Below the pieces are notes generated by a model. It saw only the letters and a list, made by a program, of their open reading frames with translations, was not told the DNA's origin and did not search any database. Positions 6,766-63,829 of a stretch of 64,000 nt of DNA are shown here, one piece after another. The translations under genes and the position numbers were made by a program. The stretch covers positions 256,001 through 320,000 of the forward strand of contig CP000069.1 of NCBI GenBank assembly GCA_000002445.1. Direction: 5' to 3'. The DNA comes from Trypanosoma brucei (Eukaryota). The stretch's first letter is position 1. The number at the start of each line of letters is the position of its first letter.

Positions 6766-6766
<1 letters not shown>

Positions 6767-7249: not shown

Positions 7250-7420
7250 CAGAAAAACCAAAAAGAAAGAAAAAAAAAAGAAAGAAAGAAAAAGAAGGAA
7301 AACTTAAGTGTAAATGGATAAGTAAGTAAGTAAGAAGGAAAAAAAAAAGGAAAGAAAAAAAAAAAGAAAGAACTCGACAAGACAAGAAGACAGAAAAAGA
7401 ATGAAAAAACAAAAAAAGGA
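7250..7420. repeat. Homopurine.homopyrimidine tract of about 170 nt, (GAAA/AAAG)-rich and almost free of pyrimidines on the plus strand.
   Basis: cagaaaaaccaaaaagaaagaaaaaaaaaagaaagaaagaaaaagaaggaaaac...ggaaaaaaaaaaggaaagaaaaaaaaaaagaaagaa. Confidence 0.8.
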
Positions 7421-10031
7421 ATATTCAAAACCATCCGGAGAATCCGATGGACGCTTCGCAGAAAACGAACAAGAAGAAAAGAACAAAAAGAAAAAGGGGA
7501 GGGGAAAAAAAAAACAACAACAACAAAGAACAATGCACAAATAAGAAACCAAAAATAAAAAAATTACAAAAAAAAAAAAGAAACCAAATACCCCCACGTG
7601 AAGTTGAGGCATTTAAAACTAAAATACACACAGCCATACGCATAAAAAAAAAAAGAAAGGAAAGAAAAAATGGAATCAGCACAAAAATAAATTCAACAAC
7701 AACAGCAGCAAAAACGCTAAGAAATGTTCGCACAAACATAAACAAAAACATAAACATTTATAAATATATATAAATAAATGTGTGTATTTTGTTGTTATGA
7801 AAGGCCAGCACCGCCACTTCATAATTTTCACGCGGCTGACGAGGCACACAAAATACAACAAATTTGCGCTCCCGACTTTCTTTTTCTTTTTTTCTTTTTT
7901 AAAAAAAGAACTTAAACTTGTCTTTATTTTTTTTTTTCCCCTCTCTCTGTCATTGTTCCACACACATATTTTCTTCTCTTTTCCCTTTTTTAAATTTAAT
8001 TTTCCCACATCCCGAAGATAAACACAACACAACACAACACAACAAACAAATGCATATGATTTCATTCATCACTGCATTTGTTTATTTTTATTTTTATTTT
8101 CCACTCGTAATGGTGCGCATCCAATGAAGTTTCCCCTTCTTTTTTTCTCTTCTCTTTTCTTTTCTTTTCTTTTCTTTTTGTTTGTTTGTTTGTTTCCCCA
8201 TTCAGAACAATAATAGTAATAATAATAAAGGGGGAGAAGTAATAAAATAAATGGCAGCAGAAACGAGATTCGTAACAAAACCACCACCACCACCTCCACT
8301 TCGAAGTAAAATGAAATGATTATGTTCTTGGAGACACGGAAAAAAGAAAAAAAAAGAACTTGAAGTGTGACATGACATGACATGACGTGACGGCGAGTGT
8401 GTTTTATATATTTTTTAAATTTTATTTTATTTCATTCACTTTTTAGTAATTTTATTTGTGTTGTTTGCTTTCTTTTTATTTTTTTCTTTCAAGAGAAAAA
8501 AAAAGTGTTTTGTGAGTGAAGGAAAAAAAAAAAAGAAAAAAAAAGGAGGGGTGTGTGTGTGGGAGAGTTGGAAATTAAAAAACAAGCACAAAAATAAAAG
8601 AGTAATTTAAATAAAACAAAATCATATGTTTTTGTTTTATTTGGTTCTGCATGTTGTTGTTGCCCTCACTTGACTTTTGATTTTTTTTCCTTTTAAAAAT
8701 ATAATTTCCTTCGCTTTTTGTGCTTTTTTCCCCCCCTTTTTTTTTCCACCCACTCCTCAATTTAATAATTTAATTTGCCTTCACCCAACGACACGAAACG
8801 AAAGAAAATATTTTTTTTTTAAAAAAAAGCACAAAAACAACAATAAAATTAAATAAAAGATGAAAGCAAGAATAAAACACAAACACGCACATGCACACGC
8901 ACATGCACAAACAAAAAGGAAGAAGGATTAGTCGTAGGAAAATATAAATATAAATAATTTTTATATAATTTCATGTAAAGGTATGATGAGACCGAGCATT
9001 TCAAACAAAACAAAAAACAAAGCTCTATTCTCTCTTCTTTTTTTTTTAAAAAAAAAATTATTTCATTTTATTTTCCCATTGAACAAAATAAAACAACAAA
9101 AGTAAATTAAATACAAAAACAAAATAAAACGAAGCTAAACGAAATGAAACGGAAAGGACAACGATGAAGAGATATGGAATGAGGAGGGAAGGAGGGATTA
9201 GTGTAAAACAAAGTAACAAACAAACAACCAACAAAAAAGAAAAAAAAAAAAAGGACAAAATCAAATAAAACAAAAAAGAGGGGGAAAAAGATACGATCAA
9301 TTGCAAAACGGACGAGCAAATACAAGATAGAAGAGAGAAAGAAAAAGAAACAAAACTAAACAAATTTTCTTTCTTTCTTCTTTCTTCTTCTTTAAAAAAA
9401 AAACACACACACACACATACACATACGCATTTATCATATAAATACATGTATACATATAAATATATATATATATAAATATATATAAACATATATACAAAAA
9501 TATGCAACAAGAACAATAAAGAATGCGTAAAATGGAAAAACGCCCTTCACACATCTCAATGCATATCAGTAGAAGCTCTCACAATCATGTAAGTATATGT
9601 GAACATAAATAAATATATTTATATATAATAAAGATGTGTGTGTACATGTGTATGTGTGCGGAGATAAGCTCGCGATTCCCAATCGTGGCTTGAAGAAACT
9701 GAAAGTATAGGAAGAAGTAAACGCAAAAAAAAAAAGAAAAAATCCAACAACTAAAATCAAAAAGTAAAAACGAAAACACCACCACCGCCACCAACGTAAA
9801 ATGCCGTTGGGAAATTAATATAATTCACGCGACAACGAGTAATTGAATGGCCACGACACGACACGACAAGACAAGAGAAGAGAAGAGGAGAAAAAGGATA
9901 AACTTAACAGAGAAAAAGAAGGGGGGGGGGAAAAAAAGAAAATAAAATAAAAAGAAAGAACAACAACAACAGCGTTACGACAAAATCATCATCAAAGGGG
10001 AAGGAAGGCATTGACCGAGTGCATACAAACG

Positions 10032-34235: not shown

Positions 34236-35303
34236 AAAAAACCCTAATTTTTATATATTTAAAGAAATATAAACCGGAACAAACAATTTAAAAGGAAGAG
34301 AAAAAGAAAAAGGAAAATTTGGACGAATGAGTGTGGAAGGACTTGCGCTGCTTTTGCATGCCTCTTCCAATACAAACACCCCAACGCACAAATACACACA
34401 CATATTAATATTAATATTAATATATATATATTCTTTCCTGAAGATGCCCCCCCCCAAACAACCCCAATTCTCCTCCCTTCCTCCTTTTTTTCCTTTTGAT
34501 CTTCCAATCAACAAAGGCACACAAAAACAGCAGATATAAACACAAAAATATAAAAGAAAACACAAACATATGTGCGAAAATATTGGACACATATAATGAT
34601 ATATTTCCTTCATTTTTCTTGTTGAAATATTCGTGTCTGTTTAGCCCCGTTTTTTAATTCATTCTCTTTTTAACACCATTCATTACTTTTATTACTATTA
34701 TCAGGTCGCCATCTATTTTCTTTTTTATTTTCTGCTTCTGTTTTTCCTCCTTCTGTGAATTATTGAAAAAGTTAGTGGATTAAAAAGAAAAAAATTAGAA
34801 ACTTTAATACCAACAAAAGCAGGCGTAATAATCACAAACACACAAACACACGCAGTTACATGTACATATATATATATGAAACGTAACAAATGGAAGGAAC
34901 AAAACAAATGAACACAAAACATCAGACATCGAAACCAAAACAAAACAATAAAAACAAGAAAACTATCTAAAAAAAAGAAAAGGAATAAAAGGAGTGATGT
35001 GTTCGGTGTCGCATAACGACGAATGGAGGGGGGAAATATACGGCCGGGATGAGAGAATAGCAATAAATGAAAAAAAAAAACAATTGAAAAGAGAAAAAAG
35101 AAAAAAACAGGCCGTAAGCACATTACTTGTCTTTGTTGGAGGAAAAAAAAGCAAAAAAAAAGAGATGGAAGTTGGGAAAGAGAAAAAAAATTCTCACCAT
35201 CGGAGTGGTGGAGCATGTTCGTTTTTTCTTTCCTGCTGATTTAACTTGATTTGTTTCCCCCTCCTTTGGTTTGTCCTGTTTCATCCTAAAATCTCATAAA
35301 CAT
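34236..35303. repeat. Left copy of a roughly 1.08 kb inverted repeat pair (partner at 58141..59233).
   Basis: By-eye alignment of the reverse complement of 34236-35303 to 58141-59233 shows roughly 97% identity over the full length, with only scattered substitutions and small homopolymer-length differences. It is also visible as near-identical ORF-track translations on opposite strands (34725..35216 minus vs 58246..58734 plus; 34251..34613 minus vs 58857..59054 plus). Confidence 0.9.
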
Positions 35304-35831
35304 ATTTATGTATACACTTATATATATATATATATATACGCGTGCGCATGCGTGTGTTTGTGTTTTACTCTATTCATTCATTTTGCTTTTTGTTTGTTTT
35401 TGGTTTTGGTTTTTCACCATACATCATGATCACACCAGTTGTTTGTTTGTTTACTTTTTTATTATTTTTCATTCCTTTCTGTTATTTTGCTTGTTTGCTC
35501 CTCTTTTACTACTGCCGTAGCATCACTTAGCCTTCACTGTATTGCTTTCTACTGTACACTTCTCGTCTCTTCTACTCCATTCTTCCTCTCTCTCTCTCTC
35601 TCTCTTTTCCTTCATCTTTGCGTATCCCAAGCTTACAGAAGTAGGCCACGACAGTAATAATAATAATAATAATAGTAAACAAAACTTGAGGTTAAAAGGA
35701 GCAGCGTATCTCATTTCTTCGGTTCCTTTCCCTCTGGCGCCTCCACCTTCCTTTTATTATTCATTCCTCATATTTCGTAGAAATCGCATAGCACTTAAAC
35801 GAACAGACGCATGGTACTCAATCCAAGTCAT

Positions 35832-36677
35832 TTAACAGAAGAGATACGACTCCTTTGGAACTGCAGGGCTCAATGGGCGTTCATATCCCGGACCCGCCTG
35901 TCGTGAGCGACGCGCTCCGTTCCGCTGAAAAGCCAAAGCGGCCTCCACATCAATGACAGAATCGCCACTACTGCTTTTAGAACAGTGTCCCTCATCTTCA
36001 CCAGCGCGGCACGATGCTTCCACACAATCCTCAAGGGGATTTTGTCCACTTGTTGGAGCTGAGAATCCCCACAGCGGTGGTTCACTAATGGAAAAGAACT
36101 CCATCATGGCTTCTTCATCGGGGTCAATGCGGTGGGGACGCTCGCGGAATGTAAGCAAAGACGATGGGATATGGGCAGGTGGTGAGGGCTTCCGTACCGT
36201 CATCTTTCCAACAGAAGACCGCCGCAATTCATATGAAGGCGAGGGGACAACACTTAAACTGCCTGCATGACGCTCACACATCTGGTCTGGAGGAACTCCT
36301 GGGCAATGCGGTAGCCGAATGGGCGATAGCGACGGGCAGCTGTTGCGGGCGGCATCATCATCCCTGGAAACATTGGCGTAACGACGAAGTGGATGCTCGC
36401 CACTTGTTGGCAAGCGCTCCAACCATCTTCTGCATCCGTGAGTTTCAACCGTCCTCACCGATGTGGGCGCCTCGGTGTTGCTGTGATGAGTGGCATTTTG
36501 CATGCGCGCTGCATCACCCTTTACGATATCCGGCCCGAAGTGGTCGTGGTGAGCTGCACACTTTGACTCGATACAGTTCATAACTACTGCAATACTATTT
36601 TCTTTCTTTACACTGTGTTTTTTTTCCCCCTTTCGTGAAGCCTGCTTCTTTTTTTTTTTTTTGGGGAGCAACAGCAC
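35832..36677 (-). CDS. Small hypothetical protein, 281 aa by longest ORF. Alternative start is Met33 at 36581, MNCIESKCAAHHD.
   Basis: Complete ORF. The N-terminal KKKKKK is encoded by a poly-T run on the plus strand. A polypyrimidine tract on the coding strand lies at 36790-36860. Cys/His/Pro-rich, with no known motif. Confidence 0.55.
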   Translation of the reverse strand: MLLLPKKKKKKQASRKGEKKHSVKKENSIAVVMNCIESKCAAHHDHFGPDIVKGDAARMQNATHHSNTEAPTSVRTVETHGCRRWLERLPTSGEHPLRRYANVSRDDDAARNSCPSLSPIRLPHCPGVPPDQMCERHAGSLSVVPSPSYELRRSSVGKMTVRKPSPPAHIPSSLLTFRERPHRIDPDEEAMMEFFSISEPPLWGFSAPTSGQNPLEDCVEASCRAGEDEGHCSKSSSGDSVIDVEAALAFQRNGARRSRQAGPGYERPLSPAVPKESYLFC

Positions 36678-51413: not shown

Positions 51414-52538
51414 TCACAAGTCGTCTAGAACATCGTTCTTTCCCTTAGTGGTTTGACGCTGGTTGTACTCCTCGACGGCATGTTGTAGCTCTTCCAAAAA
51501 CAGTGTGTCATTTAAAAAATCTTCCAGCGTTCCGTTTCGTCGAGCGTCAGACGCAAGAACCTCATGTAGCACAACCTCTTCCTCGACACCGTCACCAGAA
51601 CTATAGGAAGTCACAGTTATCTCGAGGGCAGCGATGTTTCCGTACATCCAACGGCTCATGCCCACGTCTATAGCAATCACGCTGCCTCCACAAAAAGTTT
51701 CCACTCTCCCTGAGCGTTGGGGAGTGTGACCCACAACCACCCGTTTTACCCCCAGTGAAGCGAGCGCTTTTTTTGTATCGGCACAACGACCATTTGAAGC
51801 ATCAAGGAACATCTTTCGGGACCACAAAGGACCGGTTGAACCCAAAAGGATATGACCAAAATTTTTTGTACGTATCGCCTGCTTGGCTTCCCGGTTTAGC
51901 CTCTCAATTCCATCGGAAACAACATGTTCGTCAATGCCAGCATGAACAAATAAGGTATCGGCGACAGCATACGCTACTGTGAAATTTTCTAAAATAAATC
52001 CTCCGAACGTGCCGTCGAGTTCAAACGCGCGCTTGCGCAACGCCCTTGTCAAAAACCCACCCATAGATTTTGAATGGACATAATGAAAGTGACCCTGAAG
52101 ATTTAGAAGCTCGTGATTTCCCATAAGCAGAACTACTTTGTCATCAGTGTAGTTCGTGCGCACCTCATTAAAAAGCGAAACAGCCATCTCAAGTACCTCC
52201 AAATCTTCCTCACCTCTATCAATCAAATCTCCAGTTTGTATTAGGGTTGTCCGCAATCGTGTGCCGTATTCCCTAAAGAAGTTACCTTCCTTAGTCCCCC
52301 ATCTGGGCTTCCACACCACTTGTTTACTACTGTTAGAACGTAGGCTAATGACGCCGGACATCTCAAGGATTTGCCGAAAACGCTCGGCATCTCCATGCAC
52401 ATCTCCGACGGCCACAATACGGTGTATTTCAATGGGAATGACATTCCTGCTAAGGGGGTTTGCGTCTACATTAGCACAACATCGTATGCCCAAATGTGCA
52501 ACCAGAACTAGCGAAATTAACAAGTATTTCCCCACCAT
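51414..52538 (-). CDS. Shewanella-like (bacterial-type) PPP serine/threonine phosphatase with an N-terminal signal peptide, 374 aa.
   Basis: The signal peptide is MVGKYLLISLVLVAHLGIRCCA. Metallophosphatase motifs are AVGDVHGD, GDLIDRG, GNHE and VGHTP. It is the first (5'-most) gene of the minus-strand transcription unit in this window. Confidence 0.8.
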   Translation of the reverse strand: MVGKYLLISLVLVAHLGIRCCANVDANPLSRNVIPIEIHRIVAVGDVHGDAERFRQILEMSGVISLRSNSSKQVVWKPRWGTKEGNFFREYGTRLRTTLIQTGDLIDRGEEDLEVLEMAVSLFNEVRTNYTDDKVVLLMGNHELLNLQGHFHYVHSKSMGGFLTRALRKRAFELDGTFGGFILENFTVAYAVADTLFVHAGIDEHVVSDGIERLNREAKQAIRTKNFGHILLGSTGPLWSRKMFLDASNGRCADTKKALASLGVKRVVVGHTPQRSGRVETFCGGSVIAIDVGMSRWMYGNIAALEITVTSYSSGDGVEEEVVLHEVLASDARRNGTLEDFLNDTLFLEELQHAVEEYNQRQTTKGKNDVLDDL

Positions 52539-52599
52539 TAAAGACGGCTAAAGTATTAAACTGTCTGGTACACAACACGATATTTTGTGTCAATACGAA

Positions 52600-55500
52600 A
52601 CACCTTAGATATTAGAAGTCGAGAAGGACATCATACGAGAACTGAAGGCAGGAGAAGGTTGAAAACACAAAAACAGCCCACAATCAGACAAATACTGAGT
52701 GAACAAGGCACCATTAGCACAGTTCGTAATGTCCTTAACGTAATAGGGATGACTCCTTTGCTGACACAAACACATGGTCGAAGACAAATCATTGCACAAG
52801 ATGCGCACCCCTGGCACTGGAAAGGCGCTAGTGCAGTTACCTGGACTGGGGCTCTCTCTCTCCCCCCCAAACGAAACCAAGTTGTTGAGCAGCATCAGGT
52901 GTTGAGACTCACACACTCATTATTGTTCGGATGCTGGCACATGTCCATAATCACAAATAATAAAAAAGTTATCTGTCACCACCTTCAGAGGCCATACCTG
53001 CCGACATTTGTTTCCTCATTTTTAAAAAGTTCCCTCGACATAAAAGGAGGATTTAAGCACGGAGGTGTTGTTACAATTGGAGCCGGGGCTAGTTGCACCC
53101 GGCTCGAAAGTGATGTGACCGACAAACCTCCGACTACGGCCCTCTTATGCAAACAAAGCACCACGGGCATGGTACAAGTAGTCAAGTGAAGCTCTAACAA
53201 TAACAATCATAATAGAGTATTACTGTATCTATTTGGTTCTTCGCGAGACTCTCGGCATCACTTGCGAGCACAGAAAAACAAGCGGAAACCCATAGCATTC
53301 TCAGCATTTAACATGCTTCCAAGGGCGGATCTTTTGATGTGCATTCATTTAAATAAGAAAAGATCCCAGATCGTGCGTTCATGACACATGGTGACGTTGG
53401 CAATAGCCAGCTAAGCCGGAGGACATGGTTCATTTTTGTATTTCGACCCTTTCAACTTAAAAAAGAATTAGCACTCTATGACCGCGGCTAATCACGGCGA
53501 AAACACAAATTCATTTCATTTGATTCATTTCTTAGCGCGCTCTTCACCCATGCGCCCCCACCTCTGCGCCACTCCCATTTCGCACTATTCTTAGTGGTGT
53601 AAAGGTTGTGGGGGTGGGTCGTTCCCCAGCAACACATCCTGGGCTTACAAACAGGGTTATGGGCTAAAAATGCACTCCAGCGACCGTGTGAACCGAATCA
53701 ATTGCCCACAGCTCGCCGGAAGTTTGCAGCTTCCGACGGAACTTGCAAACGGAGAAAGCCGTCCGGACGACAACCAGTAAATATGTCACTAGGGGCGGAC
53801 AAACAAATAAGTAAAGGTTTCTACCACTTTCATTCACTTTCCACCCCTTTCCCCACCGCGTTGCTCAATCTGTCATTATATCAATATCCGGCATCACCTG
53901 CACAGCGACGAGATGTGCTCAACACCGTTACACTTGACGGATCGCAGTGACACGGGTGATTGACTCTCGAGCTCGCAGTTGGTGGCATTAGCGGCTGTCC
54001 CGCGTTATTGTTCACTAAACGGGGTCACTGATCTCCCTGACGCTCCTATCAATACGCATCAGAGGACAGCGTACATCGGCCTTCTTTTTCTTTGGAAACG
54101 GAAAAGGTAAACGAGGAAAGAACGAAGATGATAAAATCTGCGGGTTCGCAAGTGGATTTATGGAGCAGAACCAATTTGCTGACCTTCAATATTGTTCACC
54201 TCCTACAGCAAAGCGGAAACGGCATTACATCTCCTGCCTTAGCTATTCAGTGAGAGTTTGTTCCACTACTGGTGAGAGAATGGATCATTCCATTGTTCTC
54301 CCTTGTTGTGTATGATGTAGTGCGCTTATTTGTTTTTCGAGACACCCATTCAATTGATACCTTTTTAGGCGAAATAATCGTTTCAATCTTTAGCAACCTT
54401 ACTTTGATGCTTTCTCTTCCTCCCTCTTGCTATTCTTTTCGTTGCAGTCAAGTGATCACGCGGAAAATGAATCGATTGATGCAGGGCTTTTGTTTCAGTT
54501 GCAGCCGGCTTTGCCTAAGCATGGTGGCATGAACAATGGAGCGACAACACCTCTTTCACGTCGTGTGCACTTCGACCGTACATTCTCTGAACTTTCGTTG
54601 CATTTCCCCTTCTTTATCAGTGAACAATTCTCACCATACGCTTGACTGGAACATTTTGGAGGTGATAGTGTGATGTTACGCAATACACAGCCGAATCCAA
54701 ACACTCTATTAGCGTTGGGCTCGTGTTAACGGCTTCCGGTGAACGATCAGTACTATCTGAATATCACCCTCGGGAAGCTGATCGAGAGTGTTGCCATGTG
54801 CCACAGCAGTATAATATCCGTATTTCAGGCAGGTTCTTCCCCCTTTCGTTTGTGCAGGTAACGCAAAGAAGTGTTTCAACCCTCTTTCTAGAAGGTGTGT
54901 CAGAACATTTCTTTGCGTACTTGTGGTGTCGGGAGAACACGACCCGCCGGAGTTCCTCTGTATGTTTTGGAAGTGATGCCCTCCCCAGAGTGTTTTGTGC
55001 TTCCTATTCTCTTCTATACCACCACAACCGTGAAGTTGTCGATGTGCCACGCCAGGCGTAACCGCGGCATAATGTTGCTCTCGCTATTCTTTCCCTCTGT
55101 TTTTTCACTTTACCATTTATTCTGCAGAATGAAAAGCAGCGAATCGTTCCGTTGGTACTGCCTTTTTTGTTGCTAATTTTGGTGCGCATTTCTATATACG
55201 TCGCGACCCTCCCTCTCCACTACTGTGGGGCCCTTTTTTTTTGTGACAGCAATGAAAGAGACAATGGCTCGGCGAAAATTGTCGTTCTCCTTCGGCTTTT
55301 TGGTCGCTCCATTACAGTGCGGAAAACCGTTGAAAATTCGCTTTCAACTGCCATACCTTCCGCACGGCAACTGCATGTTGCTTTGCCTGTTCCAAGGAAA
55401 TAATCCATCGTTAGTTCCTCATTCCTCAGTGGTATTGAGGTTCTGGTCCTTGGTGAATCGTCCAGCATTTCCATTTCACCTATCTAAACATGCCAGTCAA

Positions 55501-57800
55501 ATTTCCTGAGTCTTATCACCTTTCTTATTCTTTGCGCTTTTCATCACCTATGGCATCTGCTTTCAGCACCCAGATGCTGCACAATCGGAGGAGGACATCC
55601 TCGCTAACAAGAGGTATTCAACTTTACGTGGTTTCTCCAATCTGTCAAAATTATCGTAACGCCCCCCCTTTTCATTGCGCTTTTACACCTGGCGTTCCTA
55701 TAGGAAAAGCTGCCTCTGCATCTGCTCAAAGAAGATGCTTTTTTACTTAGAGGGATAGGGAGGGGGCTAACACTCTCCTGAATGCAACGCCTGCTCCAGT
55801 TATGAGCGTGGCTCCTTTTTGTATGGCCTCCTCATTCGCTGCCTTTGGCAAAGCAGACATCGTGTGTGCAGCTTGCGCACGCATGCGACCACGAATATTG
55901 CGGTGTGGAGGTGACGGCAAATACTAACGGAAAATCGCGGCACAGCAAATTTCCCCATTGCGTAACACGTCAGCGATGTGACCCGATCTCAGTGATCCCT
56001 CTCTCCAACCCTGCTCTATAGGTGAGACGGCCCCAGCCGCAGTAGTCTTCGTGGTTCTTTTGTTGCCCCCTTTGTGAACTTCACTACTTCGAATGACTAA
56101 AGCACTAGGCTAATTAGCTTCGGTCACTTCCCCCTACATTTTCGTAATCCGTGTGGAGGTTATGGGCGTCGGCACGCCTGATCCCAAGGCACACAAATCT
56201 CTTTTCCTCAGTTAATACGTCCAAATAGTGTTGCGTTAAGCACTGGGTGACACACCCTACTCGTTACTCTTGCATATCGTCGACATTTTCCAGATCCATG
56301 TCATTGGGCGTGGTCGTGGGATCCTCTGAAAAGAGCCTACCGCGAAACTCCGAAATGCTACCTCGTCTTCTGTTGAGGGATTACACCCCAACCGTGTATA
56401 AGATTGGCATCTGAGCCAACCCTTGCGATGTTCTGCAGGTTACGGATACAGTTTCTAACCACGTGTCGCCAATCTCCACTTGGGGTCTTGAAGTGAACAA
56501 CAACTGTCGCATCCACTTCGTCGGCTGGAAATATATTTTCCAGCGATCTAGCGCCAAAATCATACGTGCATGCTCTACCGGGCTCAATGTTATCAGATAG
56601 CTCAGAAACATCACTACCGCCTCCCCTCCTCCTTGCCCGCCGGCTTATTACACCAAGCGGCTGTGCCATAGCACTCGTTGATGGGCACTTGAAGCCCTGG
56701 CCGCTGTGGCTAAGGTGAGGCGTCCCGTTTATTCTTCAGTTTCTCAGTGTCTTTCTTTCCATTAGCTTGCAGGGGCCGCCTGTTACGGTCACTGGCCGCG
56801 GTCGCGCCACCTATGTCGCAGCCTTGTTTGTCTCCAAGGTCGGTGTTAAAATGCCCTTCCCTCCGCCGTTTCGCCATGGCGTTGGGCCCAGCGCACCAGT
56901 TATTATTTCCAGGGAGGTCCTGTCCCTCTTTCCGCTCGAGATCCTGCAATTTATCTCCATGCTTATGATCCGCCCCCGGTGCCGCCCCTTTAGCAAATTC
57001 ACTTACAGCTGACTTTCGTTTAGCTCGCGATGAGAGGGCATGACCGTGCGGTTGTTTGCTGGCGGCGATCCGCTATTTGGGGGGTGGGGGCGGATCGGCC
57101 TCTCTGTGGGATTCTTGGAGAGTAGCTCTGTGGGTACGCTCGCCTCCACTCCGCTCGTTGTTTCTCCTTTTCGGTAGGCGTTGACTGGTCGCCGGTACCC
57201 GCGTGCGCGGCGCGTCTCCGCTCCGGACTCACCCTGGTCAAGCGAATTGACACCGTTTCGAGTGCTGTTGGGGGTTAGGTGCCCAGAGGGCCGTTACCGC
57301 CCTTTGGCGGGTGTGGCGGGGTCGCTTCAGCTTCCTTACGGGCTCGGAGCAGTGCCGTTGCCGAGCGGTACGCTTGTACGCATTCTGCGGGGTGGTAAAA
57401 CCCTTTGTTTTCATTGCATATTGGCCCATGATCACGAGGGTTGATGGTTGTAGCAAAGGGACGGTGCAATTTAAGCGCGCGCGCAGGGGGACCATATATC
57501 AAAACATATCTGTGAGTTTAAACGACTTCACAAGTGCTGCTCCTAGTGATTTTTTAAGTACCTGGGGAAGTATTTGGGTCCTCGAGCCGGTAAGTGTGTT
57601 GGGTTGCTCCCCCTACTGTGTGGTTCTTGATCCCCTAGTGGTGCGGATAAATGGACGCCTGACTAGAGAGACCGGCCGTAGCGTTGTCGTTCTTTTGACT
57701 TTCTTTAGATCTGACAAGATGCCACTTGTTCAGTTGGGTGCGCTGACTGTTTGACTTCTGCCTCACGGCCCCAACAATCCCTGTGACAGTTAGAAAAAAA
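52600..57800. other. ORF-poor block of complex, non-low-complexity sequence about 5.2 kb long. Candidate degenerate retroelement (ingi/DIRE-like) or decayed pseudogene(s). No intact coding capacity.
   Basis: Base composition and k-mer complexity look like coding DNA, unlike the pyrimidine/purine-tract intergenic regions elsewhere. The longest ORFs are 60 to 200 aa in all six frames, with no recognisable motifs. Its size matches ingi-family elements (about 5.2 kb), but no RT or endonuclease motif was recognised by eye. Confidence 0.3.
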
Positions 57801-58140
57801 AACTGAGGAAATCTTATGCGAGACATGATGTCGGGACGATCATTCATTACCGATTACCGACTCAGTAGCATTGCCGTGTCGGTATATCGGACAACTTTAC
57901 CGAATCAACCCTCTGTACGAAAACTAAAGACCCAATAAATCACCTATCTTGCAAATCCGTGACGTTCGTCGTTTAGATATTTAATACTTCTCGTTACTAA
58001 ACACGACACTCTTAGGACTGCAGAAGCATAACATTTTACATAAAAGCCAACAGCCCCCCCCAAAAAAAAAAATTAAATTGAAGTCGTTGCCCTAGCAAAA
58101 GGCGAAAACAATGCCAAACTCTAAGAAACTTGCAGATATA

Positions 58141-59233
58141 AATATATTTATGAGATTTTAGGATGAAACGGGACAAACCAAAGGAGGGGGAAACAAATCA
58201 AGTTAAATCAGAAGGAAAAAAAAACGAACAAGCTCCACCACTCCGATGGTGAGAATTTATTTCTCTTTCCCAACTTCCATCTCTTTTTTCTTTGCTTTTT
58301 TTTCTTTTTTTTTCCTCCAACAAAGACAAGTAATGTGCTTACGGCCTGTTTTTTTCATTTTTCTCTTTTCAATTGTTTTTTTTTCATTTATTGCTATTCT
58401 CTCATCCCGGCCGTATATTTCCCCCCTCCATTCGTCGTTATGCGACACCGAACGCATCACCCCTTTTATTCCTTTTCTTTTTTTTTTTAGAGAGTTTTCT
58501 TGTTTTTATTATTTTGTTTTGGTTTCGATGTCTGATGTTTTGTGTTCATTTGTTTTGTTCTTCCCATTTGTTGCGTTTCATATATATATATATGTACATG
58601 TAACTGCGTGTGTTTGTGTGTTTGTGATTATTACGCCTGCTTTTGTTGATATTAAAGTTTCTAATTTTTTTCTTTTTAATCCACTAACTTTTTCAATAAT
58701 TCACAGAAGGAAGAAAAACAGAAGCAGAAAATAAAAAGAAAAAAGAAAAGAAAAGAGATGGCGACCTGATAATAGTAATAAAAGTAATGAATGGTGTTAA
58801 AAAGAGAATGAATTAAAAAACGGGGCTAAACAGACACGAATATTTCAGCAAGAAAAATGAAGGAAATATATCATTATATGTGTCCAATATTTTCGCACAT
58901 ATGTTTGTGCTTTCTTTTATATTTTTGTGTTTATATCTGCTGTTTTTGTGTGCCTTTGTTGATTGGAAGATCAAAAGGAAAAAAAAGGAGGAAGGGAGGA
59001 GAATTGGGGTTGTTTGGGGGGGGGCATCTTCAGGAAAGAATATATATATATTAATATTAATATTAATATGTGTGTGTATTTGTGCGTTGGGGTGTTTGTA
59101 TTGGAAGAGGCATGCAAAAGCAGCGCAAGTCCTTCCACACTCATTCGTCCAAATTTTCCTTTTTCTTTTTCTTTTCCTTTTAAATTGTTTGTTCCGGTTT
59201 ATATTTCTTTAAATATATAAAAGTTAGGGGTTT
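58141..59233. repeat. Right copy of the inverted repeat pair, ending about 0.8 to 0.95 kb upstream of the adenylate cyclase CDS.
   Basis: Same alignment as above. The boundaries are where similarity decays, at about 58141 (tttatgagattttagg) and about 59233 (aaatatataaaagttagggg). Confidence 0.9.
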
Positions 59234-60004
59234 CGTTGTTGTTCTACGCGTTGCCATTTAACGTTGCTACGTTATTTTCTTACATATCAAATCTTCCAGT
59301 GGTAATTCTTCCCTTGTATGCCAACAGGAGTGCGTAGACCTGCATTATCTTTTAAAAAATACATATTACCTTCTTACGTGTTAACTTTGTGAAACATAAC
59401 CTATGCGACATGATCTTTTCGAATGGTGGATATGCAAATGACTCTGCCCCAATGCCATGTGTCATGCTGTCCAGCACTCAGTGTTGGTGGTGACTTTATG
59501 AGCACCGCTTTAACTATTGTTTGGCAGTGCATTCCTTGTTTTTATGAAGTCAGGTTGATGCGCAGTGGTTGTCGTTATTTCTTTCCCTCATATATATACG
59601 CATGTGCATATTTCAGTATTTAAATACGTATGCTTACCTTGTTTGAGGTTCTATCATATTTGAAAAACATTTTTTTATTTTTGTTTTGTCTACCTCACTT
59701 TGATGCTATATTTATCCACTACGGCACAGCAGGTGGCACCTTCCTCACACAGTCCCATGGAGGTTTATTTGCGATTGCCCAGGAAGTGGAACAGGAGGGG
59801 GAATATGGGAGTTAGGCGATGCGTCACAATTGCACTTTGCCGCTCTTACGGTGAGTTAACCGAATATTCTTTCGTGTGTGAACCGTAGTATTTCCACCCT
59901 CCCAGGGTTGAGGGTTTAATATTTTGATTATGTCGCGATTGGTGACTTTCTATTTCTGTCCAATACGTCGCCGGGCATGATCTGCATATGTATTAAGCGC
60001 GCCG

Positions 60005-63000
60005 ATGCCACTTTACTGGTTTCTATTTTCCCTCTTCGATATTCTTCTCGAAGACACAAGATTTCACATACGAATAATACCACACATTCCCGAAAATATG
60101 TGCCGGCAGGAAGGTGGCGGCAGAGGATGTGTGTACCCTCATGGAAACTGCAGGCGGAACCTTACCGCAAGGAGCCCTGCAGGGCGTTACAGCATGTACA
60201 AGCACTCACCTGTCATTACTGCTATGTCACTGCTACACTTGTTGCCTTTGCTACTCATGTGGATGCCACCTGTGTGCGCGGATGACAGTGCTGTGACGGT
60301 AAATGTGCTATCCATGATGTACAATTCGGAATATTACGTTGAGAAAGTGAACGCCATCAATGCCGGCTTTGACGCATCACTGAGTGCCCACGGTTGGAAG
60401 ACGGGCTCCGGTGCGACAATATCTGTCATCCGTCCCCCATCGTACAACACCACAGCTGAGGACATATTTCAGCTGGGGGCGAAACAAAGTGAAGGGAAGT
60501 TATTAGTTGTATTTGGGCCCCTGGGTACTGACCCTGTCGTTTGGGTTCGTGATAAACTAAAGGAAAATGATCTTGTTGCCATCGCTCCTATTGCGTACTC
60601 CAGTGAGGTCCGTGGTTGGAACCCTCACCTCTATTCAATAAGTGTCGAACCCAATGCTGAGCTCCTCGCCCTCATTCGATACGCTGTTGTTTATCTGGGT
60701 CTGCCGCGTGTAGGTTTGATGTATGCGAAGGGTAATGGGTTTGACAAGGAGTCATATGAGTTTACCATGCGAATAATGGAAATGATGGGCCGCAAGCCAT
60801 GTGGAGTGTTCGCTGTGGAGAGCAGTGGGGGTCGGGACGTCTTGGAGGGTGAATTGAATACCAAGTGGGGGCAATTTGTTGCTGCACGTCCGCAGGCTGT
60901 ACTGCTATTTTCATCGCTAGAGGAAGAAACCACCGGGTGGTTTGTCAAGAAGATAGCACAGGACAACCGCACTATGGACATGTACCTGCTCGCCCCTTCC
61001 AGTTTTCAACATTTTCTGATCAAAACATGGAGCGATGCGCTGGTGTCACTTAATCGTACGTTCACTCCTGGACAGCTGATCACAACTGGAACAGTGCCAC
61101 TCGCTAGTGACAATCGGTCCTCGATGGTTCGGCACTTCCAGCGTGACATGGACAATTACCTGGATACAAACAGTGACTGGAAGGGCTTTGCGAAACCTGA
61201 ACATTACCTTAAGGACGACAAATTAGGGGAGATGATGGTGTTTGGATGGCTTGCGGGAGAAGTTCTGTTTGAGGCCCTAAACAACGCTCCACAACTGACA
61301 AACCGTACTTCATTCATGGAATCTCTGTACAAGCAGCGTCGCTACGTGATTGATGACTTTGTGGTTGGTGACTTTGGTGGTGAGTGCGATGAGGGCGCTG
61401 CATTACAGGGTGCCATGTGTAATTGCAATCAAGGTGGCAGCATGGCGCATATGAGAGTTGTTGATGACAGCCTCAGTTTGAAGCCTATGAAAAAAGGCTC
61501 TGTGACGTGGAGTGTATCGGAGTGCTCAAGTGCTAATGTGCAGGTGAGCGCACCGTTAATCGGACTGTATGTAGTCCTTACGGATGATAAAGTTGCACAA
61601 CGTGCGAGCATGAGGTGGTCGTTGGGCGCTCGGAGCCTCGAGGAAGCGGATGATGTTGATAAGAGAATATTTTTCCATTCCTTAAAGGTTAATTTAAAAA
61701 ATTTAACGCAATCACTTGAACAAGTAAGGGACACGAAGGCTGTAGCTGCAGTTCTTGGTGTTGTTACCGCTGATATTCTGAGCGTGCCGAATATGACTTT
61801 CATTGGCCCTATTCCATTGTTCCCCCGGTTGAACAAGTTCTGGAGAAACGTGATCCATCTGCAACCGCTACTTGCGCAGCAGCTATATGTGCTTGCTGTA
61901 TACCTCTCCAACACCTCTTCCTTGGGAGTGAAGGCGCTTGTTCGCGGGAGTGAAGCATCTGAGGTTGTAGACACGCTTGATAAGTCATTGGTTACGTTTG
62001 GTGTGTCGCTTGATTCCAGTAAGACACTTGGTGATGGTGACCCGATATCGTCATATCTCTCGGGTAATGGAGATGTGTTTTGTATTGGACTCACTCCCCC
62101 TGACGTTGCTGCGGTTGCGCGGCACCTTCAGACCCACCTCAGGGCACGTGTATTCGTTCCATTCAATGACATTTTGTTGTTTTACCAGGAGTTTGTGGCT
62201 GCATTTAATGCGAGTAAAGAGTCTATTGCCAGCTCAGAGCGGCTCCTATTCGCGACGAGTTTCCCACACTGGGCAAAGAAGAACACGAAATCAGATATGG
62301 TTGCGAGATTTCATCGCCATGTAAATGAATCGCATTGGGATCCACTAACGTTCCTGGGCTTTGCTACCACTCGGCTGCTTCAGGTTGTTATCTCCAATAT
62401 GAAGAAAGTGAATGCAGAGCTGCTGGCAGACCGCATTTACACGGAGTCCAACATCAGAGTGGATGACGTGCGATTTGGACCCTTCAGTGATGCGGAATGT
62501 GTTTCTGGTACGAGTGTTTCGGCAAATGAGTGTGCCTCAAACTTTGGAGCCACAAACATTTCTGTATGGTCGATGGCGCGTGTGCTGAATTCAAGCTTGC
62601 CCAGGACACAGGTTGGGATGACACCGTCTATGGACTATGTTATTCCGCAAGAGGGTCAACTCACACAGTCACAGATAGCTGGAATAATTTCTGGGTGTGT
62701 ATCCGCCTTGTTATTATTTATTGCCCTTGGTGTGTTCCTACACATCTCCCTGCGGAACGCTCGTAACAACAACCGTGCACCCAAGGAGCCAACGGACCCC
62801 GTGACACTAATATTTACTGACATTGAGAGCAGCACTGCGTTGTGGGCTGCACACCCTGATCTGATGCCCGATGCCGTCGCCGCGCATCATCGTATGGTCC
62901 GTTCACTGATTGGGAGGTATAAGTGCTACGAAGTTAAAACTGTTGGGGATTCGTTCATGATAGCGAGTAAGAGTCCTTTCGCTGCCGTCCAACTCGCACA

Positions 63001-63829
63001 GGAATTACAGCTGTGTTTCTTGCATCATGACTGGGGAACAAATGCAGTTGATGATTCTTACCGTGAGTTTGAGGAGCAGCGTGCGGAGGGAGAATGTGAG
63101 TACACACCACCAACCGCGCATATGGATCCTGAAGTGTACAGTCGTTTGTGGAATGGCCTGCGTGTACGTGTTGGAATCCACACCGGGTTGTGCGACATCC
63201 GACACGATGAAGTGACGAAGGGATATGACTACTATGGGCGGACTCCAAACATGGCAGCAAGGACGGAGAGTGTAGCAAATGGTGGTCAGGTGCTGATGAC
63301 GCATGCGGCGTACATGTCGCTGTCAGCTGAGGATCGTAAGCAAATTGATGTCACTGCACTTGGTGCTGTCGCACTTCGCGGTGTGAGTGATCCGGTTAAG
63401 ATGTACCAGCTGAATACCGTGCCTAGTCGTAACTTTGCTGCATTGCGGCTGGACCGCGAATACTTTTTTGATGAGGGCGAGGATGGCACGACAACCTCCA
63501 CAAGCGACCACAGTTCTTCACGTGCGGAGCTGAGTGAATCAGCTCAGATAATTGCAACTGCACTACAGTCGCTGTTAAGCACGTTCAAGACAGCGCATCG
63601 TGAGAAGTTGTTGCTGCCGTATTGTGAGCGTTGGCGTGTGCCTCTTCCCCGTAAAGCTGCATCCGAGTGGGATGACGCCTACTGTGAGGAAGTGGTGCGT
63701 CGCATTGCAGTTAAGGTTGGGCGTGTCGCTGACCATGGCGCTCATAGTGGAAGTGAGTCTTCAAGTACGCAAGGCAGTTCATCAATTATTATCGTCCCCT
63801 TTTACGACATGCACCTTCAGGAATACTAA
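60005..63829 (+). CDS. GRESAG4: Receptor-type adenylate cyclase (GRESAG4/ESAG4 family). Longest ORF is 1274 aa. The likely functional start is downstream, either the first AUG after the predicted splice acceptor at 60098 or the signal-peptide Met at 60194 or 60224.
   Basis: Architecture is a signal peptide (MSLLHLLPLLLMWMPPVCA), then a large extracellular periplasmic-binding-protein-like domain, then a single TM helix (IAGIISGCVSALLLFIALGVFLHI, about aa 890), then a class III cyclase catalytic domain (LIFTDIESSTALWAAHPDLM...YKCYEVKTVGDSFMIASKSPF...VRVGIHTGLCDIR...YYGRTPNMAARTES). A polypyrimidine tract at 60018-60052 lies inside the longest ORF. Confidence 0.9.
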   Translation: MPLYWFLFSLFDILLEDTRFHIRIIPHIPENMCRQEGGGRGCVYPHGNCRRNLTARSPAGRYSMYKHSPVITAMSLLHLLPLLLMWMPPVCADDSAVTVNVLSMMYNSEYYVEKVNAINAGFDASLSAHGWKTGSGATISVIRPPSYNTTAEDIFQLGAKQSEGKLLVVFGPLGTDPVVWVRDKLKENDLVAIAPIAYSSEVRGWNPHLYSISVEPNAELLALIRYAVVYLGLPRVGLMYAKGNGFDKESYEFTMRIMEMMGRKPCGVFAVESSGGRDVLEGELNTKWGQFVAARPQAVLLFSSLEEETTGWFVKKIAQDNRTMDMYLLAPSSFQHFLIKTWSDALVSLNRTFTPGQLITTGTVPLASDNRSSMVRHFQRDMDNYLDTNSDWKGFAKPEHYLKDDKLGEMMVFGWLAGEVLFEALNNAPQLTNRTSFMESLYKQRRYVIDDFVVGDFGGECDEGAALQGAMCNCNQGGSMAHMRVVDDSLSLKPMKKGSVTWSVSECSSANVQVSAPLIGLYVVLTDDKVAQRASMRWSLGARSLEEADDVDKRIFFHSLKVNLKNLTQSLEQVRDTKAVAAVLGVVTADILSVPNMTFIGPIPLFPRLNKFWRNVIHLQPLLAQQLYVLAVYLSNTSSLGVKALVRGSEASEVVDTLDKSLVTFGVSLDSSKTLGDGDPISSYLSGNGDVFCIGLTPPDVAAVARHLQTHLRARVFVPFNDILLFYQEFVAAFNASKESIASSERLLFATSFPHWAKKNTKSDMVARFHRHVNESHWDPLTFLGFATTRLLQVVISNMKKVNAELLADRIYTESNIRVDDVRFGPFSDAECVSGTSVSANECASNFGATNISVWSMARVLNSSLPRTQVGMTPSMDYVIPQEGQLTQSQIAGIISGCVSALLLFIALGVFLHISLRNARNNNRAPKEPTDPVTLIFTDIESSTALWAAHPDLMPDAVAAHHRMVRSLIGRYKCYEVKTVGDSFMIASKSPFAAVQLAQELQLCFLHHDWGTNAVDDSYREFEEQRAEGECEYTPPTAHMDPEVYSRLWNGLRVRVGIHTGLCDIRHDEVTKGYDYYGRTPNMAARTESVANGGQVLMTHAAYMSLSAEDRKQIDVTALGAVALRGVSDPVKMYQLNTVPSRNFAALRLDREYFFDEGEDGTTTSTSDHSSSRAELSESAQIIATALQSLLSTFKTAHREKLLLPYCERWRVPLPRKAASEWDDAYCEEVVRRIAVKVGRVADHGAHSGSESSSTQGSSSIIIVPFYDMHLQEY
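60018..60052 (+). promoter_or_regulatory. Polypyrimidine tract with a downstream AG. Putative spliced-leader acceptor for the adenylate cyclase mRNA.
   Basis: The sequence tttctattttccctcttcgatattcttctcgaag is followed by the first in-frame AUG at 60098. Confidence 0.4.

What the first reader, a model, noticed from the sequence alone, without database searches (positions are those of the whole stretch)
52600..57800. 5.2 kb of coding-like but ORF-less sequence. Candidate degenerate retroelement (DIRE/ingi-like) or pseudogene remnant in the strand-switch region
This block has balanced base composition and high complexity like coding DNA, yet no frame stays open for more than about 200 codons and the ORF translations have no recognisable domains. 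Degenerate ingi-related elements of about 5 kb are known to accumulate at strand-switch regions in T. brucei, and the size fits. I could not recognise RT (FADD/YADD), APE-endonuclease or zinc-finger motifs by eye, so this is a hypothesis only.
Basis: inference. Interest (0 to 1): 0.5.

Follow-up and report, generated by a model that had tools for sequence, protein, structure and literature searches.

The report
Decayed retrotransposon relic between diverging genes
The gene-free block lies where two Trypanosoma brucei gene clusters diverge, and about 3.8 kb of it is probably the badly decayed, non-coding remnant of an ingi/L1Tc-type retrotransposon, which is a known kind of genomic fossil and of modest importance.

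Summary
The window is T. brucei TREU927 chromosome 6. Bases 52539-60004 separate a minus-strand phosphatase gene (probably Tb927.6.750) from a plus-strand GRESAG4 adenylate cyclase (Tb927.6.760), so this is a divergent strand-switch region.

GC is 0.40-0.62 with no real ORF. Codon usage is non-coding, changes against T. b. gambiense are 17 synonymous to 56 non-synonymous, and the two longest ORFs are broken in relatives.

Standard tests for a retroelement failed: Pfam on six frames, the Pr77 5' hallmark, Rfam and repeats. The orthologous region does carry ingi/L1Tc-clade elements in T. cruzi (near-intact L1Tc) and T. melophagium (RT, RNase H, zinc finger).

Using these as queries, I found three weak collinear matches, all on the minus strand:
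- RT motifs 1-2 at 56825-56667
- RT core at 56614-56315
- RNase H at 55426-55211

Each RT and RNase H profile match beats every shuffle of the sets run against it. They are the only positive hits for those profiles in the 64 kb window.

Composition and a degenerate A-tract suggest a 5'-truncated relic at about 54082-57880, in the same orientation as the phosphatase cluster. Any function is untested.

The parts
51414..52538 (-). First gene of the minus-strand cluster: kinetoplastid-specific Ser/Thr phosphatase (Metallophos), probably Tb927.6.750
   Evidence: Pfam PF00149, E 2.4e-13. It is 100% identical to T. brucei TREU927 XP_845198.
52539..54069 (.). Unique non-coding DNA between the phosphatase start codon and the inferred 3' end of the relic. 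No retroelement signal.
   Evidence: No Pfam, Rfam, repeat or profile hits. The 209-codon stop-free run at 52560-53186 has an indel in T. b. gambiense and only a self hit among 1.84 billion representative proteins.
54070..54081 (-). Candidate 3' copy of a 12-bp target-site duplication (GGCCGATGTACG). Inconclusive.
   Evidence: A 9/12 match, GTCCGATATACC, lies at 57881-57892 on the same strand. About 0.12 such matches are expected by chance in the plausible 5' boundary zone.
54082..54093 (-). Degenerate A-rich tract (AAAGAAAAAGAA), a possible remnant of the poly(A) tail at the inferred 3' end of the relic
   Evidence: Read from the sequence. Its position matches the 3' end predicted from the L1Tc scale (about 54.1 kb) and the point where AT skew and G+T fraction change. 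This is inferred.
54082..57880 (-). Inferred extent of the 5'-truncated degenerate ingi/L1Tc-related element (DIRE-like relic), about 3.8 kb
   Evidence: The detected domain remnants lie inside it. The sense strand is A+C-rich across 54.0-57.6 kb, as in the T. melophagium element. GC drops at about 57.8-57.9 kb. The boundaries are inferred, not shown.
55211..55426 (-). RNase H domain remnant
   Evidence: Two-sequence profile (T. melophagium + L1Tc), positions 188-257, 4.9-5.5 bits, i-E 2.8e-3. It exceeds 100 of 100 shuffles (maximum 2.4) and is the only positive RNase H hit in the 64 kb window. It is collinear with the RT hits. A targeted frameshift-aware alignment alone gave p = 0.11.
56315..56614 (-). 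Reverse transcriptase core remnant (motifs A to C region)
   Evidence: Profile positions 95-194, 8.3-8.9 bits, i-E 3.3e-4. Null maxima were 5.2 (n=200) and 0.7 (n=100). It is part of the frameshift-aware alignment to T. melophagium RT, score 94.
56667..56825 (-). Reverse transcriptase motifs 1-2 remnant (RPVTVTGGPCKLMER ... GQGFKCPSTS)
   Evidence: tblastn against T. melophagium RT gave Expect(2) 0.007 in the 5.6 kb search space. tblastn against L1Tc ORF1 aa 683-736 gave E 0.016. Profile positions 3-55, 5.6-6.2 bits.
56826..57189 (-). Possible N-terminal extension of the RT (KGAAPGAD aligned to L1Tc GKAPGPD). Weak.
   Evidence: Frameshift-aware alignment of L1Tc ORF1 aa 578-749 to 57189-56667, score 82 against a null of 59 +/- 5, maximum 69, n=40. 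It uses seven frameshifts, and the profile for this part is not significant.
57881..57892 (-). Candidate 5' copy of the target-site duplication (GTCCGATATACC). Inconclusive.
58138..59233 (+). AT-rich 1.1 kb segment, a 95% inverted copy of 34238-35309. It is not part of the relic and bounds it on the right.
   Evidence: blastn within the window. Bases 58381-59160 are absent from T. b. gambiense and the second T. brucei-group assembly.
60005..63829 (+). First gene of the plus-strand cluster: receptor-type adenylate cyclase GRESAG4 (Tb927.6.760, head of a tandem array)
   Evidence: Pfam PF25493, PF25495 and PF00211. PMC2854126 lists Tb927.6.760 as a GRESAG4 array on chromosome 6.

Best explanation
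Bases 52539-60004 are the divergent strand-switch region between the phosphatase-led minus-strand gene cluster and the GRESAG4-led plus-strand cluster of T. brucei chromosome 6. Most of the ORF-less, compositionally balanced block (about 54082-57880) is the fossil of an ingi/L1Tc-clade non-LTR retrotransposon. I infer that it inserted by target-primed reverse transcription, was 5'-truncated (losing Pr77 and most of the endonuclease), and has since decayed neutrally. It lies in the same orientation as the phosphatase cluster. It encodes nothing today. It is simply part of the non-coding DNA in which RNA polymerase II starts transcription in both directions. Its balanced composition is the residue of former coding sequence. 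The remaining 1.5 kb (52539-54080) is ordinary unique upstream DNA of the phosphatase gene. Shown: divergent gene orientation, absence of coding signal or constraint, and RT and RNase H remnants. Inferred: element boundaries, truncation, insertion mechanism and promoter-region status.
For: Source and context. No coding signal or constraint: codon log-likelihood -3.7; 1.1-2.1% substitutions against T. b. gambiense compared with 0.3-0.8% in coding sequence; 17 synonymous to 56 non-synonymous changes, and the two longest ORFs broken in relatives. The orthologous region carries clade elements in the same orientation as the phosphatase gene. T. melophagium L003:3-680 is RVT_1 at 118 bits, followed by RNase H and C2H2. 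T. cruzi L007-L009 carry a near-intact L1Tc with Pr77. Remnant in T. brucei: tblastn Expect(2) 0.007 and E 0.016 with L1Tc. The frameshift-aware alignment to T. melophagium RT scores 94 over aa 3-225 (56825-56158, 49/219 identical, 2 frameshifts, 4 stops). None of 560 shuffles reached 94 (mean 48, one at 91), and 47 real-sequence chunks had a maximum of 68. Profile HMM hits for RT (two) and RNase H (one) are all on the minus strand, collinear, above nearly all shuffled nulls, and the only positive hits in 64 kb; none occur in the T. theileri, T. grayi or T. rangeli loci. The predicted 3' end coincides with an A-rich tract and the compositional switch at about 54.1 kb. Literature: divergent strand-switch regions are 5-10 kb and hold two opposed dispersed promoters (PMC11796357; PMC12227686; PMC5579346). 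Retroelements including DIREs accumulate in such regions (PMC4748587; PMC1868937).
Against: Every individual match is weak, at 5-9 bits and 22% identity. Pfam RVT_1 does not detect the six-frame or the repaired translation. A PDB search with the repaired translation finds no RT. The L1Tc RT core alone does not align at 56614-56158. The endonuclease, C-terminal zinc finger and Pr77 are not detected. The RNase H hit is not significant in the targeted alignment (p = 0.11). One block shuffle reached 91, so the null has a heavy tail. The two query elements are related to each other, so their agreement is not fully independent. No T. brucei ingi sequence could be obtained for a direct comparison. 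No chromatin or transcription-start data were examined.
Confidence: 0.75

Rival explanations
1. The block is plain unique non-coding promoter and strand-switch DNA with no retroelement ancestry, and the RT and RNase H similarities are chance.
For: Pfam and PDB do not see an RT. Scores are only 5-9 bits. The L1Tc RT core does not support the motif A-C alignment. One shuffle scored 91 against the observed 94. T. theileri, T. grayi and T. rangeli have no element within 10 kb. A 7.5 kb gap is normal for a divergent strand-switch region.
Against: Three hits from two different domain profiles fall on one strand in the right order and spacing, and are the only positive hits in 128 kb of strand-specific sequence. 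The alignment covers 223 of 226 residues with two frameshifts. The real-sequence null maximum is 68.
Confidence: 0.15
2. The block is a decayed pseudogene of a cellular gene, for example a former first gene of one of the clusters.
For: Composition is balanced as in coding DNA. In T. rangeli and T. cruzi the opposite cluster starts with MAM33 rather than an adenylate cyclase, so this side of the locus has been rearranged in T. brucei.
Against: There is no Pfam hit in any frame. tblastx finds nothing against the rest of the window or the upstream regions of three other species. There is no codon-usage signal. The only significant similarities are to retroelement domains. Calibration shows that Pfam would miss anything decayed beyond about 0.3 substitutions per site, so an old pseudogene cannot be excluded for 52539-54080.
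Confidence: 0.04
3. The block encodes one or more functional long non-coding RNAs or other non-coding RNA genes, and that is why it is retained.
For: The region must be transcribed at least in part if transcription starts inside it (literature). The indel rate against T. b. gambiense is low, at 7 gap columns in 5.2 kb.
Against: There is no tRNA and no Rfam family even at E<=1. Substitution rate is equal to or higher than in other intergenic DNA. There is no sequence conservation beyond the T. brucei group.
Confidence: 0.05

Closest known systems
[quoted passage not shown]
   Same: It is a non-coding relic with stops and frameshifts. It has residual similarity to ingi/L1Tc-clade RT and RNase H in the canonical order. 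It lies in a strand-switch region, which is where these elements are reported to accumulate (PMC4748587, PMC1868937).
   Different: It is much more decayed than elements normally recognised by BLAST or Pfam. It shows no Pr77 hallmark, no endonuclease and no zinc finger. It is apparently 5'-truncated to about 3.8 kb. Direct similarity to T. brucei ingi could not be tested.
L1Tc of T. cruzi at the orthologous strand-switch region (L007-L009)
   Same: It lies in the same intergenic region, upstream of the same phosphatase gene and in the same orientation. The domain order is APE-RT-RNase H-zinc finger.
   Different: The T. cruzi copy is near-intact (ORFs of 948 and 675 aa, Pr77 149/154) and ends about 0.4 kb from the phosphatase start codon. 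The T. brucei relic ends about 1.5 kb away and has no ORF. Whether the insertions are orthologous is unknown, and independent insertion is more likely.
RNA polymerase II divergent transcription start region (dispersed, GT-rich promoter) of T. brucei
   Same: It is a 7.5 kb gene-free gap between diverging clusters. A G+T-rich, GC-rich stretch (0.57-0.615 G+T at 56.8-57.5 kb) lies on the strand of the plus-strand cluster.
   Different: The G+T richness coincides with the antisense strand of the retroelement relic, so it may be inherited composition rather than a promoter feature. No chromatin or start-site data were examined.

Membership tests
DIRE / ingi-L1Tc clade non-LTR retrotransposon | Recognisable similarity to the clade's reverse transcriptase | tested here: met
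   Frameshift-aware alignment score 94 against shuffles (0/560 reaching 94) and real-sequence chunks (maximum 68). There are two collinear profile hits of 8.3 and 5.6 bits; the 8.3-bit core hit exceeds every shuffle (maxima 5.2 of 200, 0.7 of 100), the 5.6-bit hit only narrowly. tblastn gave Expect(2) 0.007. The signal is weak: Pfam RVT_1 and PDB searches see nothing.
DIRE / ingi-L1Tc clade non-LTR retrotransposon | RNase H domain downstream of RT, same strand, collinear | tested here: met
   Profile hit at 55426-55211 (-), 4.9-5.5 bits. It exceeds 100 of 100 shuffles and is the only positive hit in the window, about 0.9 kb after the RT core. The targeted alignment alone gave p = 0.11, so this rests on the profile and on collinearity.
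DIRE / ingi-L1Tc clade non-LTR retrotransposon | Apurinic/apyrimidinic endonuclease domain upstream of RT | tested here: not met
   There is no Exo_endo_phos hit in the six frames. The L1Tc endonuclease alignment and profile are at null level. This is compatible with 5' truncation.
DIRE / ingi-L1Tc clade non-LTR retrotransposon | C-terminal C2H2 zinc-finger region | tested here: not met
   The T. melophagium and L1Tc C-terminal queries are at null level, and their best hits are not collinear.
DIRE / ingi-L1Tc clade non-LTR retrotransposon | Pr77 / 79-bp signature at the 5' end | tested here: not met
   The L1Tc Pr77 sequence (PMC1874656) gives a best local score of 21 against a shuffle mean of 22. 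There are no pattern hits. The T. brucei ingi version of the signature was not available.
DIRE / ingi-L1Tc clade non-LTR retrotransposon | 3' poly(A) tail and about 12-bp target-site duplication | tested here: inconclusive
   AAAGAAAAAGAA lies at 54082-54093 (-) and is followed by GGCCGATGTACG. A 9/12 copy lies at 57881-57892 (-). The chance expectation is about 0.12.
DIRE / ingi-L1Tc clade non-LTR retrotransposon | Loss of coding capacity (stops, frameshifts) | tested here: met
   There are 4 stops and 2 frameshifts within the 223-residue RT alignment. There is no long ORF.
DIRE / ingi-L1Tc clade non-LTR retrotransposon | Similarity to T. brucei ingi/RIME itself (nucleotide or protein) | not testable with these tools
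   No ingi sequence could be retrieved. An attempt with 2A-peptide words failed.
Divergent strand-switch region / Pol II transcription start region | Flanking gene clusters diverge, with a gap of 5-10 kb | tested here: met
   Genes up to 52538 are on the minus strand and the gene from 60005 is on the plus strand, a gap of 7466 bp. The size range comes from PMC11796357 and PMC12227686.
Divergent strand-switch region / Pol II transcription start region | GT-rich tracts on the coding strand | tested here: inconclusive
   G+T is 0.57-0.615 at 56.8-57.5 kb on the plus strand. This is confounded with the A+C-rich sense strand of the relic.
Divergent strand-switch region / Pol II transcription start region | H2A.Z/H2B.V, H4K10ac and Pol II enrichment; mapped 5'-triphosphate start sites | not testable with these tools
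   This requires published ChIP-seq and start-site tracks for chromosome 6.
T. brucei centromere | AT-rich tandem repeat array flanked by retroelements | tested here: not met
   There is no repeat array. The chromosome 6 centromeric array lies between Tb927.6.180 and Tb927.6.190 (PMC1868937).
Protein-coding gene | Open frame conserved in close relatives, with purifying selection | tested here: not met
   Changes are 17 synonymous to 56 non-synonymous. The 209- and 167-codon runs are disrupted in relatives. The 209-codon run has no homologue outside the T. brucei group.

The most novel reading that the evidence does not exclude
This strand-switch region may be an ancestral or repeatedly targeted landing site for ingi/L1Tc-clade elements, always in the sense orientation of the phosphatase-led cluster: T. 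cruzi intact with a Pr77 Pol II promoter, T. melophagium degenerate, T. brucei fossil. On this reading the element's internal promoter seeded, or still contributes to, transcription initiation of that cluster. The T. brucei relic would then be a fossil promoter donor rather than inert junk.
Probability: 0.1. Interest if true: 0.6.

Novelty: new member of a known kind. Interest (0 to 1): 0.25.

Why it matters
The result explains a 'coding-like but ORF-less' block without invoking a new gene: it is mostly the residue of a dead retrotransposon inside a transcription start region. Retroelement fossils in trypanosome strand-switch regions can be too decayed for Pfam or BLAST and still be recoverable with clade-specific queries from syntenic loci and frameshift-aware alignment. 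That bears on repeat annotation, and on separating inherited composition from promoter signals such as GT-richness. T. cruzi and T. melophagium have sense-oriented L1Tc-clade elements at the same locus. This gives a small test case for the published idea that Pr77-bearing retroposons contribute to the start of polycistronic transcription.

Tried and rejected
- **Pfam on six frames.** Scanning all six frames with stops as X gave nothing. A calibration with the adenylate cyclase gene decayed in silico shows the test loses nearly all signal at 0.3 substitutions per site plus indels, and all of it at 0.6. It is therefore a weak negative.
- **Concatenated ORF search.** Searching ORFs of at least 50 aa against 5.8 billion proteins returned nothing. 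It also missed two roughly 92%-identical T. b. gambiense 'hypothetical protein, unlikely' entries that are in the collection. I discard it as an invalid negative.
- **Retrieving ingi proteins.** An attempt using 2A-peptide words failed and used the last protein search.
- **Concatenated query to the representative library.** The 209-codon run alone found only a T. brucei-group self hit.
- **tRNA and Rfam.** Rfam was run at gathering threshold and at E<=1. Neither search found anything.
- **G-quadruplex motifs.** None lie in the block.
- **Pr77 hallmark.** Pattern and local-alignment searches were at chance level.
- **Internal repeats and generic target-site duplications.** Only chance-level short matches appeared.
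- **Similarity to other species' upstream regions.** blastn and tblastx against T. melophagium, T. theileri and T. grayi showed no significant similarity.
- **Repaired RT translation.** Neither Pfam nor the PDB search produced an RT hit.
- **Other L1Tc and T. melophagium segments.** The L1Tc endonuclease, linker, post-RT and C-terminal segments, and the T. melophagium middle and zinc-finger pieces, were at null level or not collinear.
- **Reciprocal phmmer.** The three T. brucei fragments, searched against 963 ORF segments from other loci, returned the expected retroelement ORFs as top hits. This is circular, because the fragments were chosen with those queries, so I give it little weight.
- **Centromere reading.** Rejected: there is no repeat array, and the chromosome 6 centromere is elsewhere.


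Full report
**Source and context.** The ORF at 51414-52538 (-) is a Metallophos phosphatase, 100% identical to T. brucei brucei TREU927 XP_845198, on a 1,618,915-bp record that is chromosome 6. The ORF at 60005-63829 (+) is a receptor-type adenylate cyclase. PMC2854126 lists Tb927.6.760 as the head of a GRESAG4 tandem array on chromosome 6. PMC11796357 refers to gene 6.740 in the neighbouring cluster. I take the phosphatase to be Tb927.6.750, but that number is from memory. Every long ORF to the left is on the minus strand. Bases 52539-60004 (7466 bp) are therefore a divergent strand-switch region.

**The observation.** It is correct.
- The longest stop-free run inside 52600-57800 is 195 codons, and 209 at 52560-53186. 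Shuffles give 138 +/- 25, maximum 251.
- GC is 0.40-0.62, unlike the 0.28-0.36 of the long AT-rich intergenic stretches inside the clusters.
- The resemblance to coding DNA stops at composition. A codon-usage log-likelihood trained on the window's genes averages -3.7 in the block, against +10 to +15 in genes and -3 to -5 in AT-rich intergenic DNA.
- Against T. b. gambiense DAL972 (L002) and a second T. brucei-group assembly (L001), the block is 98.3% identical.
- It has 1.1-2.1% substitutions, compared with 0.3-0.8% in flanking coding sequence.
- Across ORFs of at least 80 codons, changes are 17 synonymous to 56 non-synonymous. The 209-codon run carries an indel in relatives and the 167-codon run a stop.
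- The 209-codon run has only a T. brucei-group self hit among 1.84 billion representative proteins.
- There is no tRNA and no Rfam family, even at E<=1.
- 52539-58137 is unique within the window.

**Standard retroelement tests were negative.**
- Pfam on all six frames found no RVT_1, Exo_endo_phos, RNase_H or anything else at E<=1.
- The L1Tc Pr77 hallmark, taken from PMC1874656, has no match above chance.
- No convincing repeats or generic target-site duplications were found.

I calibrated the Pfam test by decaying the adenylate cyclase gene in silico. At 0.3 substitutions per site plus indels, its 425-, 178- and 146-bit domains shrink to one 23-bit fragment. At 0.6 nothing remains. The Pfam negative therefore excludes only young relics. 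A concatenated-ORF search of the large protein collection returned nothing. It also missed two near-identical DAL972 'hypothetical protein, unlikely' entries that are in the collection, so I discard it.

**Syntenic loci supplied the right queries.** I fetched the region around the phosphatase orthologue in other trypanosomes.
- In T. melophagium, L003:3-680 upstream of the gene and on the same strand is a clear RVT_1 (118 bits, E 4.5e-34). It is followed by a weak RNase H and a C2H2 zinc finger in shifted frames.
- In three T. cruzi assemblies, the gap between MAM33 (-) and the phosphatase (+) holds a near-intact L1Tc in the phosphatase orientation. It has Pr77 at L008 4889-4965 (149 of 154) and ORFs of 948 aa (2A peptide, endonuclease, RT) and 675 aa (RNase H, zinc finger). 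It ends about 0.4 kb from the phosphatase start codon.
- T. rangeli has only a 2.5 kb gap.
- T. theileri and T. grayi have 8-10 kb of ORF-poor DNA without RT signal.

**The relic in T. brucei: alignment evidence.**
- With the T. melophagium RT piece, tblastn gives two collinear minus-strand segments with Expect(2) 0.007 in the 5.6 kb search space. These are aa 12-58 to 56798-56655 and aa 76-165 to 56611-56396.
- L1Tc ORF1 gives its best hit at the same place: aa 683-736 to 56885-56712, E 0.016.
- A frameshift-aware protein-to-DNA local alignment that I wrote scores 94 on the minus strand and 51 on the plus strand. It aligns RT residues 3-225 to 56825-56158 with 49 of 219 identities, two frameshifts and four stops.
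- The conserved blocks line up, including RPV.(L/V)T....KLMER, GF(R/K).P..S, F..Y......V(D/E)H.R and QG....P(L/I)(L/M)(F/Y).
- Among 560 mono-, di-nucleotide and block shuffles, the mean is 48 and the sd 5-7. One shuffle reached 91 and none reached 94.
- Among 47 other strand-specific 5.6 kb chunks of real sequence, from the window and from the T. theileri, T. grayi and T. rangeli loci, the maximum is 68.
- L1Tc ORF1 aligns aa 578-749 to 57189-56667 with score 82, against a null of 59 +/- 5, maximum 69, n=40.

**The relic in T. brucei: profile evidence.** I built profile HMMs from the two elements (T. melophagium + L1Tc) and searched the six-frame translations. They give three hits:
- RT positions 95-194 at 56614-56315, 8.3-8.9 bits, i-E 3.3e-4
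- RT positions 3-55 at 56825-56667, 5.6-6.2 bits
- RNase H positions 188-257 at 55426-55211, 4.9-5.5 bits

All three are on the minus strand and in the canonical order. The spacing is within about 200 nt of that in L1Tc. The 8.3-bit RT core hit exceeds every shuffle of both RT sets (maxima 5.2 of 200 and 0.7 of 100). The 5.6-bit hit clears the higher maximum only narrowly. The RNase H hit exceeds all 100 of its shuffles, maximum 2.4. In the whole 64 kb window these are the only positive-scoring hits of the RT and RNase H profiles.

**Limits of that evidence.**
- Each match is weak.
- Pfam RVT_1 and a PDB search do not recognise even the repaired translation.
- The L1Tc RT core alone does not align at 56614-56158.
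- The targeted RNase H alignment has p = 0.11.
- The endonuclease, zinc finger and Pr77 are not found.
- The two query elements are 32% identical to each other, so their agreement is not independent.
- I could not obtain T. brucei ingi, which should be the most sensitive probe.

I put the probability that this is a true ingi/L1Tc-clade relic at about 0.75-0.8.

**Extent of the relic (inferred).** On the L1Tc scale, RT motif 1 lies about 2.0 kb from the 5' end. The end of the coding region lies about 0.96 kb beyond the RNase H match. That puts the 3' end of the relic near 54.1-54.25 kb.
- There the minus strand reads ...CCAAAGAAAAAGAA|GGCCGATGTACG (54093-54070).
- AT skew and the G+T fraction change sign at the same point.
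- A full-length 5' end would fall near 58.8 kb, inside an unrelated AT-rich segment. Instead, the GC-rich block stops at about 57.8-57.9 kb.
- A 9/12 copy of the putative target site, GTCCGATATACC, lies at 57892-57881. About 0.12 such matches are expected by chance, so this is only suggestive.

A 5'-truncated copy of about 3.8 kb (54082-57880) would explain the missing Pr77 and endonuclease. The sense strand of this span is A+C-rich, as in the T. melophagium element. The G+T-rich, GC-rich peak at 56.8-57.5 kb on the plus strand resembles the 'GT-rich promoter' signature (PMC5579346). It may simply be the antisense of old coding sequence.

**What the region does.**
- Shown: it encodes nothing and evolves without detectable constraint.
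- From the literature: such 5-10 kb gaps hold two opposed dispersed Pol II promoters marked by H2A.Z and H4K10ac, with first genes about 2.7 kb from start sites on average.
- Inferred: the relic is a passive part of this transcription start region, and 52539-54080 is ordinary upstream DNA of the phosphatase gene.
- Not tested: whether the relic, which lies in the sense orientation of the phosphatase cluster like the T. cruzi L1Tc with its Pr77 Pol II promoter, ever contributed promoter activity. The patchy distribution among species (present in T. cruzi, T. melophagium and T. brucei; absent in T. rangeli, T. grayi and T. theileri within 10 kb) favours independent insertions into a permissive site.

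**Verdict.** DIREs in strand-switch regions are a known kind of feature (PMC4748587, PMC1868937), so this is a new, or at least not evidently annotated, member of a known kind. Interest is modest.

Noticed in passing
window 58138-59233 and 34238-35309: This is a 1.1 kb AT-rich segment present twice in inverted orientation at 95% identity. Each copy is in the sense orientation of its own gene cluster. The copy at 34-35 kb starts about 0.5 kb downstream of the 281-aa gene at 35832-36677 (-). Bases 58381-59160 of the right-hand copy are absent from T. b. gambiense DAL972 and from assembly GCA_003543875.
   Followed up: partly
window 56361-56735 (-) and 54723-55061 (+); L002 5806-6180 and 7478-7810: T. 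b. gambiense annotates two 'hypothetical protein, unlikely' ORFs here (CBH11568, CBH11567). The first overlaps the RT remnant: its N-terminus is the GQGFKCPSTS motif-2 region. It is therefore a chance-open piece of the decayed RT and not a gene.
   Followed up: yes
L003 1-2700 (T. melophagium, JAJSEB010000008.1): This is a degenerate ingi/L1Tc-like element (RVT_1 at 118 bits, weak RNase H, C2H2 zinc finger, shifted frames). It lies 7-10 kb upstream of the phosphatase orthologue, on the same strand, and is not called as a gene. Its 5' part lies beyond the fetched locus.
   Followed up: partly
L007-L009 about 4800-9600 (T. cruzi, three assemblies): A near-intact L1Tc with Pr77, the 2A peptide CDAQRQKLLLSGDIEQNPGP, endonuclease, RT, RNase H and zinc finger is fixed at the same position in three assemblies. 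It lies between MAM33 and the phosphatase gene, in the phosphatase orientation.
   Followed up: partly
L003 4625-5392 (+) and L005 500-838 (-); L003 6850-7677 and L005 4957-5502: Long stop-free stretches upstream of the phosphatase gene in T. melophagium match T. grayi sequence on the opposite strand (46% identity over 113 aa, E 1e-27; and 27% over 214 aa, E 3e-6). They have no Pfam domain and no counterpart in the T. brucei window. They may be unannotated conserved genes and an inversion.
   Followed up: no
window 60005-63340 compared with L001 and L002: The adenylate cyclase gene differs by 6.0% from assembly GCA_003543875 but by only 1.5% from T. b. gambiense, while the adjacent non-coding DNA differs equally (about 1.7%) from both. 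This suggests a different array member or gene conversion in the GRESAG4 array.
   Followed up: no
window 3370-5574 (-) and 11496-13700 (-): Two ORFs of identical length (734 aa) lie 5.9 kb apart and are separated by AT-rich DNA. Only the second gave a Pfam Metallophos hit at E<=0.001. I did not compare them with each other.
   Followed up: no
tool behaviour: A 4701-aa query made of concatenated ORFs separated by X runs returned no hits from the search for homologous proteins. Two proteins about 92% identical to parts of the query are in the collection. Negatives from such composite queries should not be trusted.
   Followed up: yes
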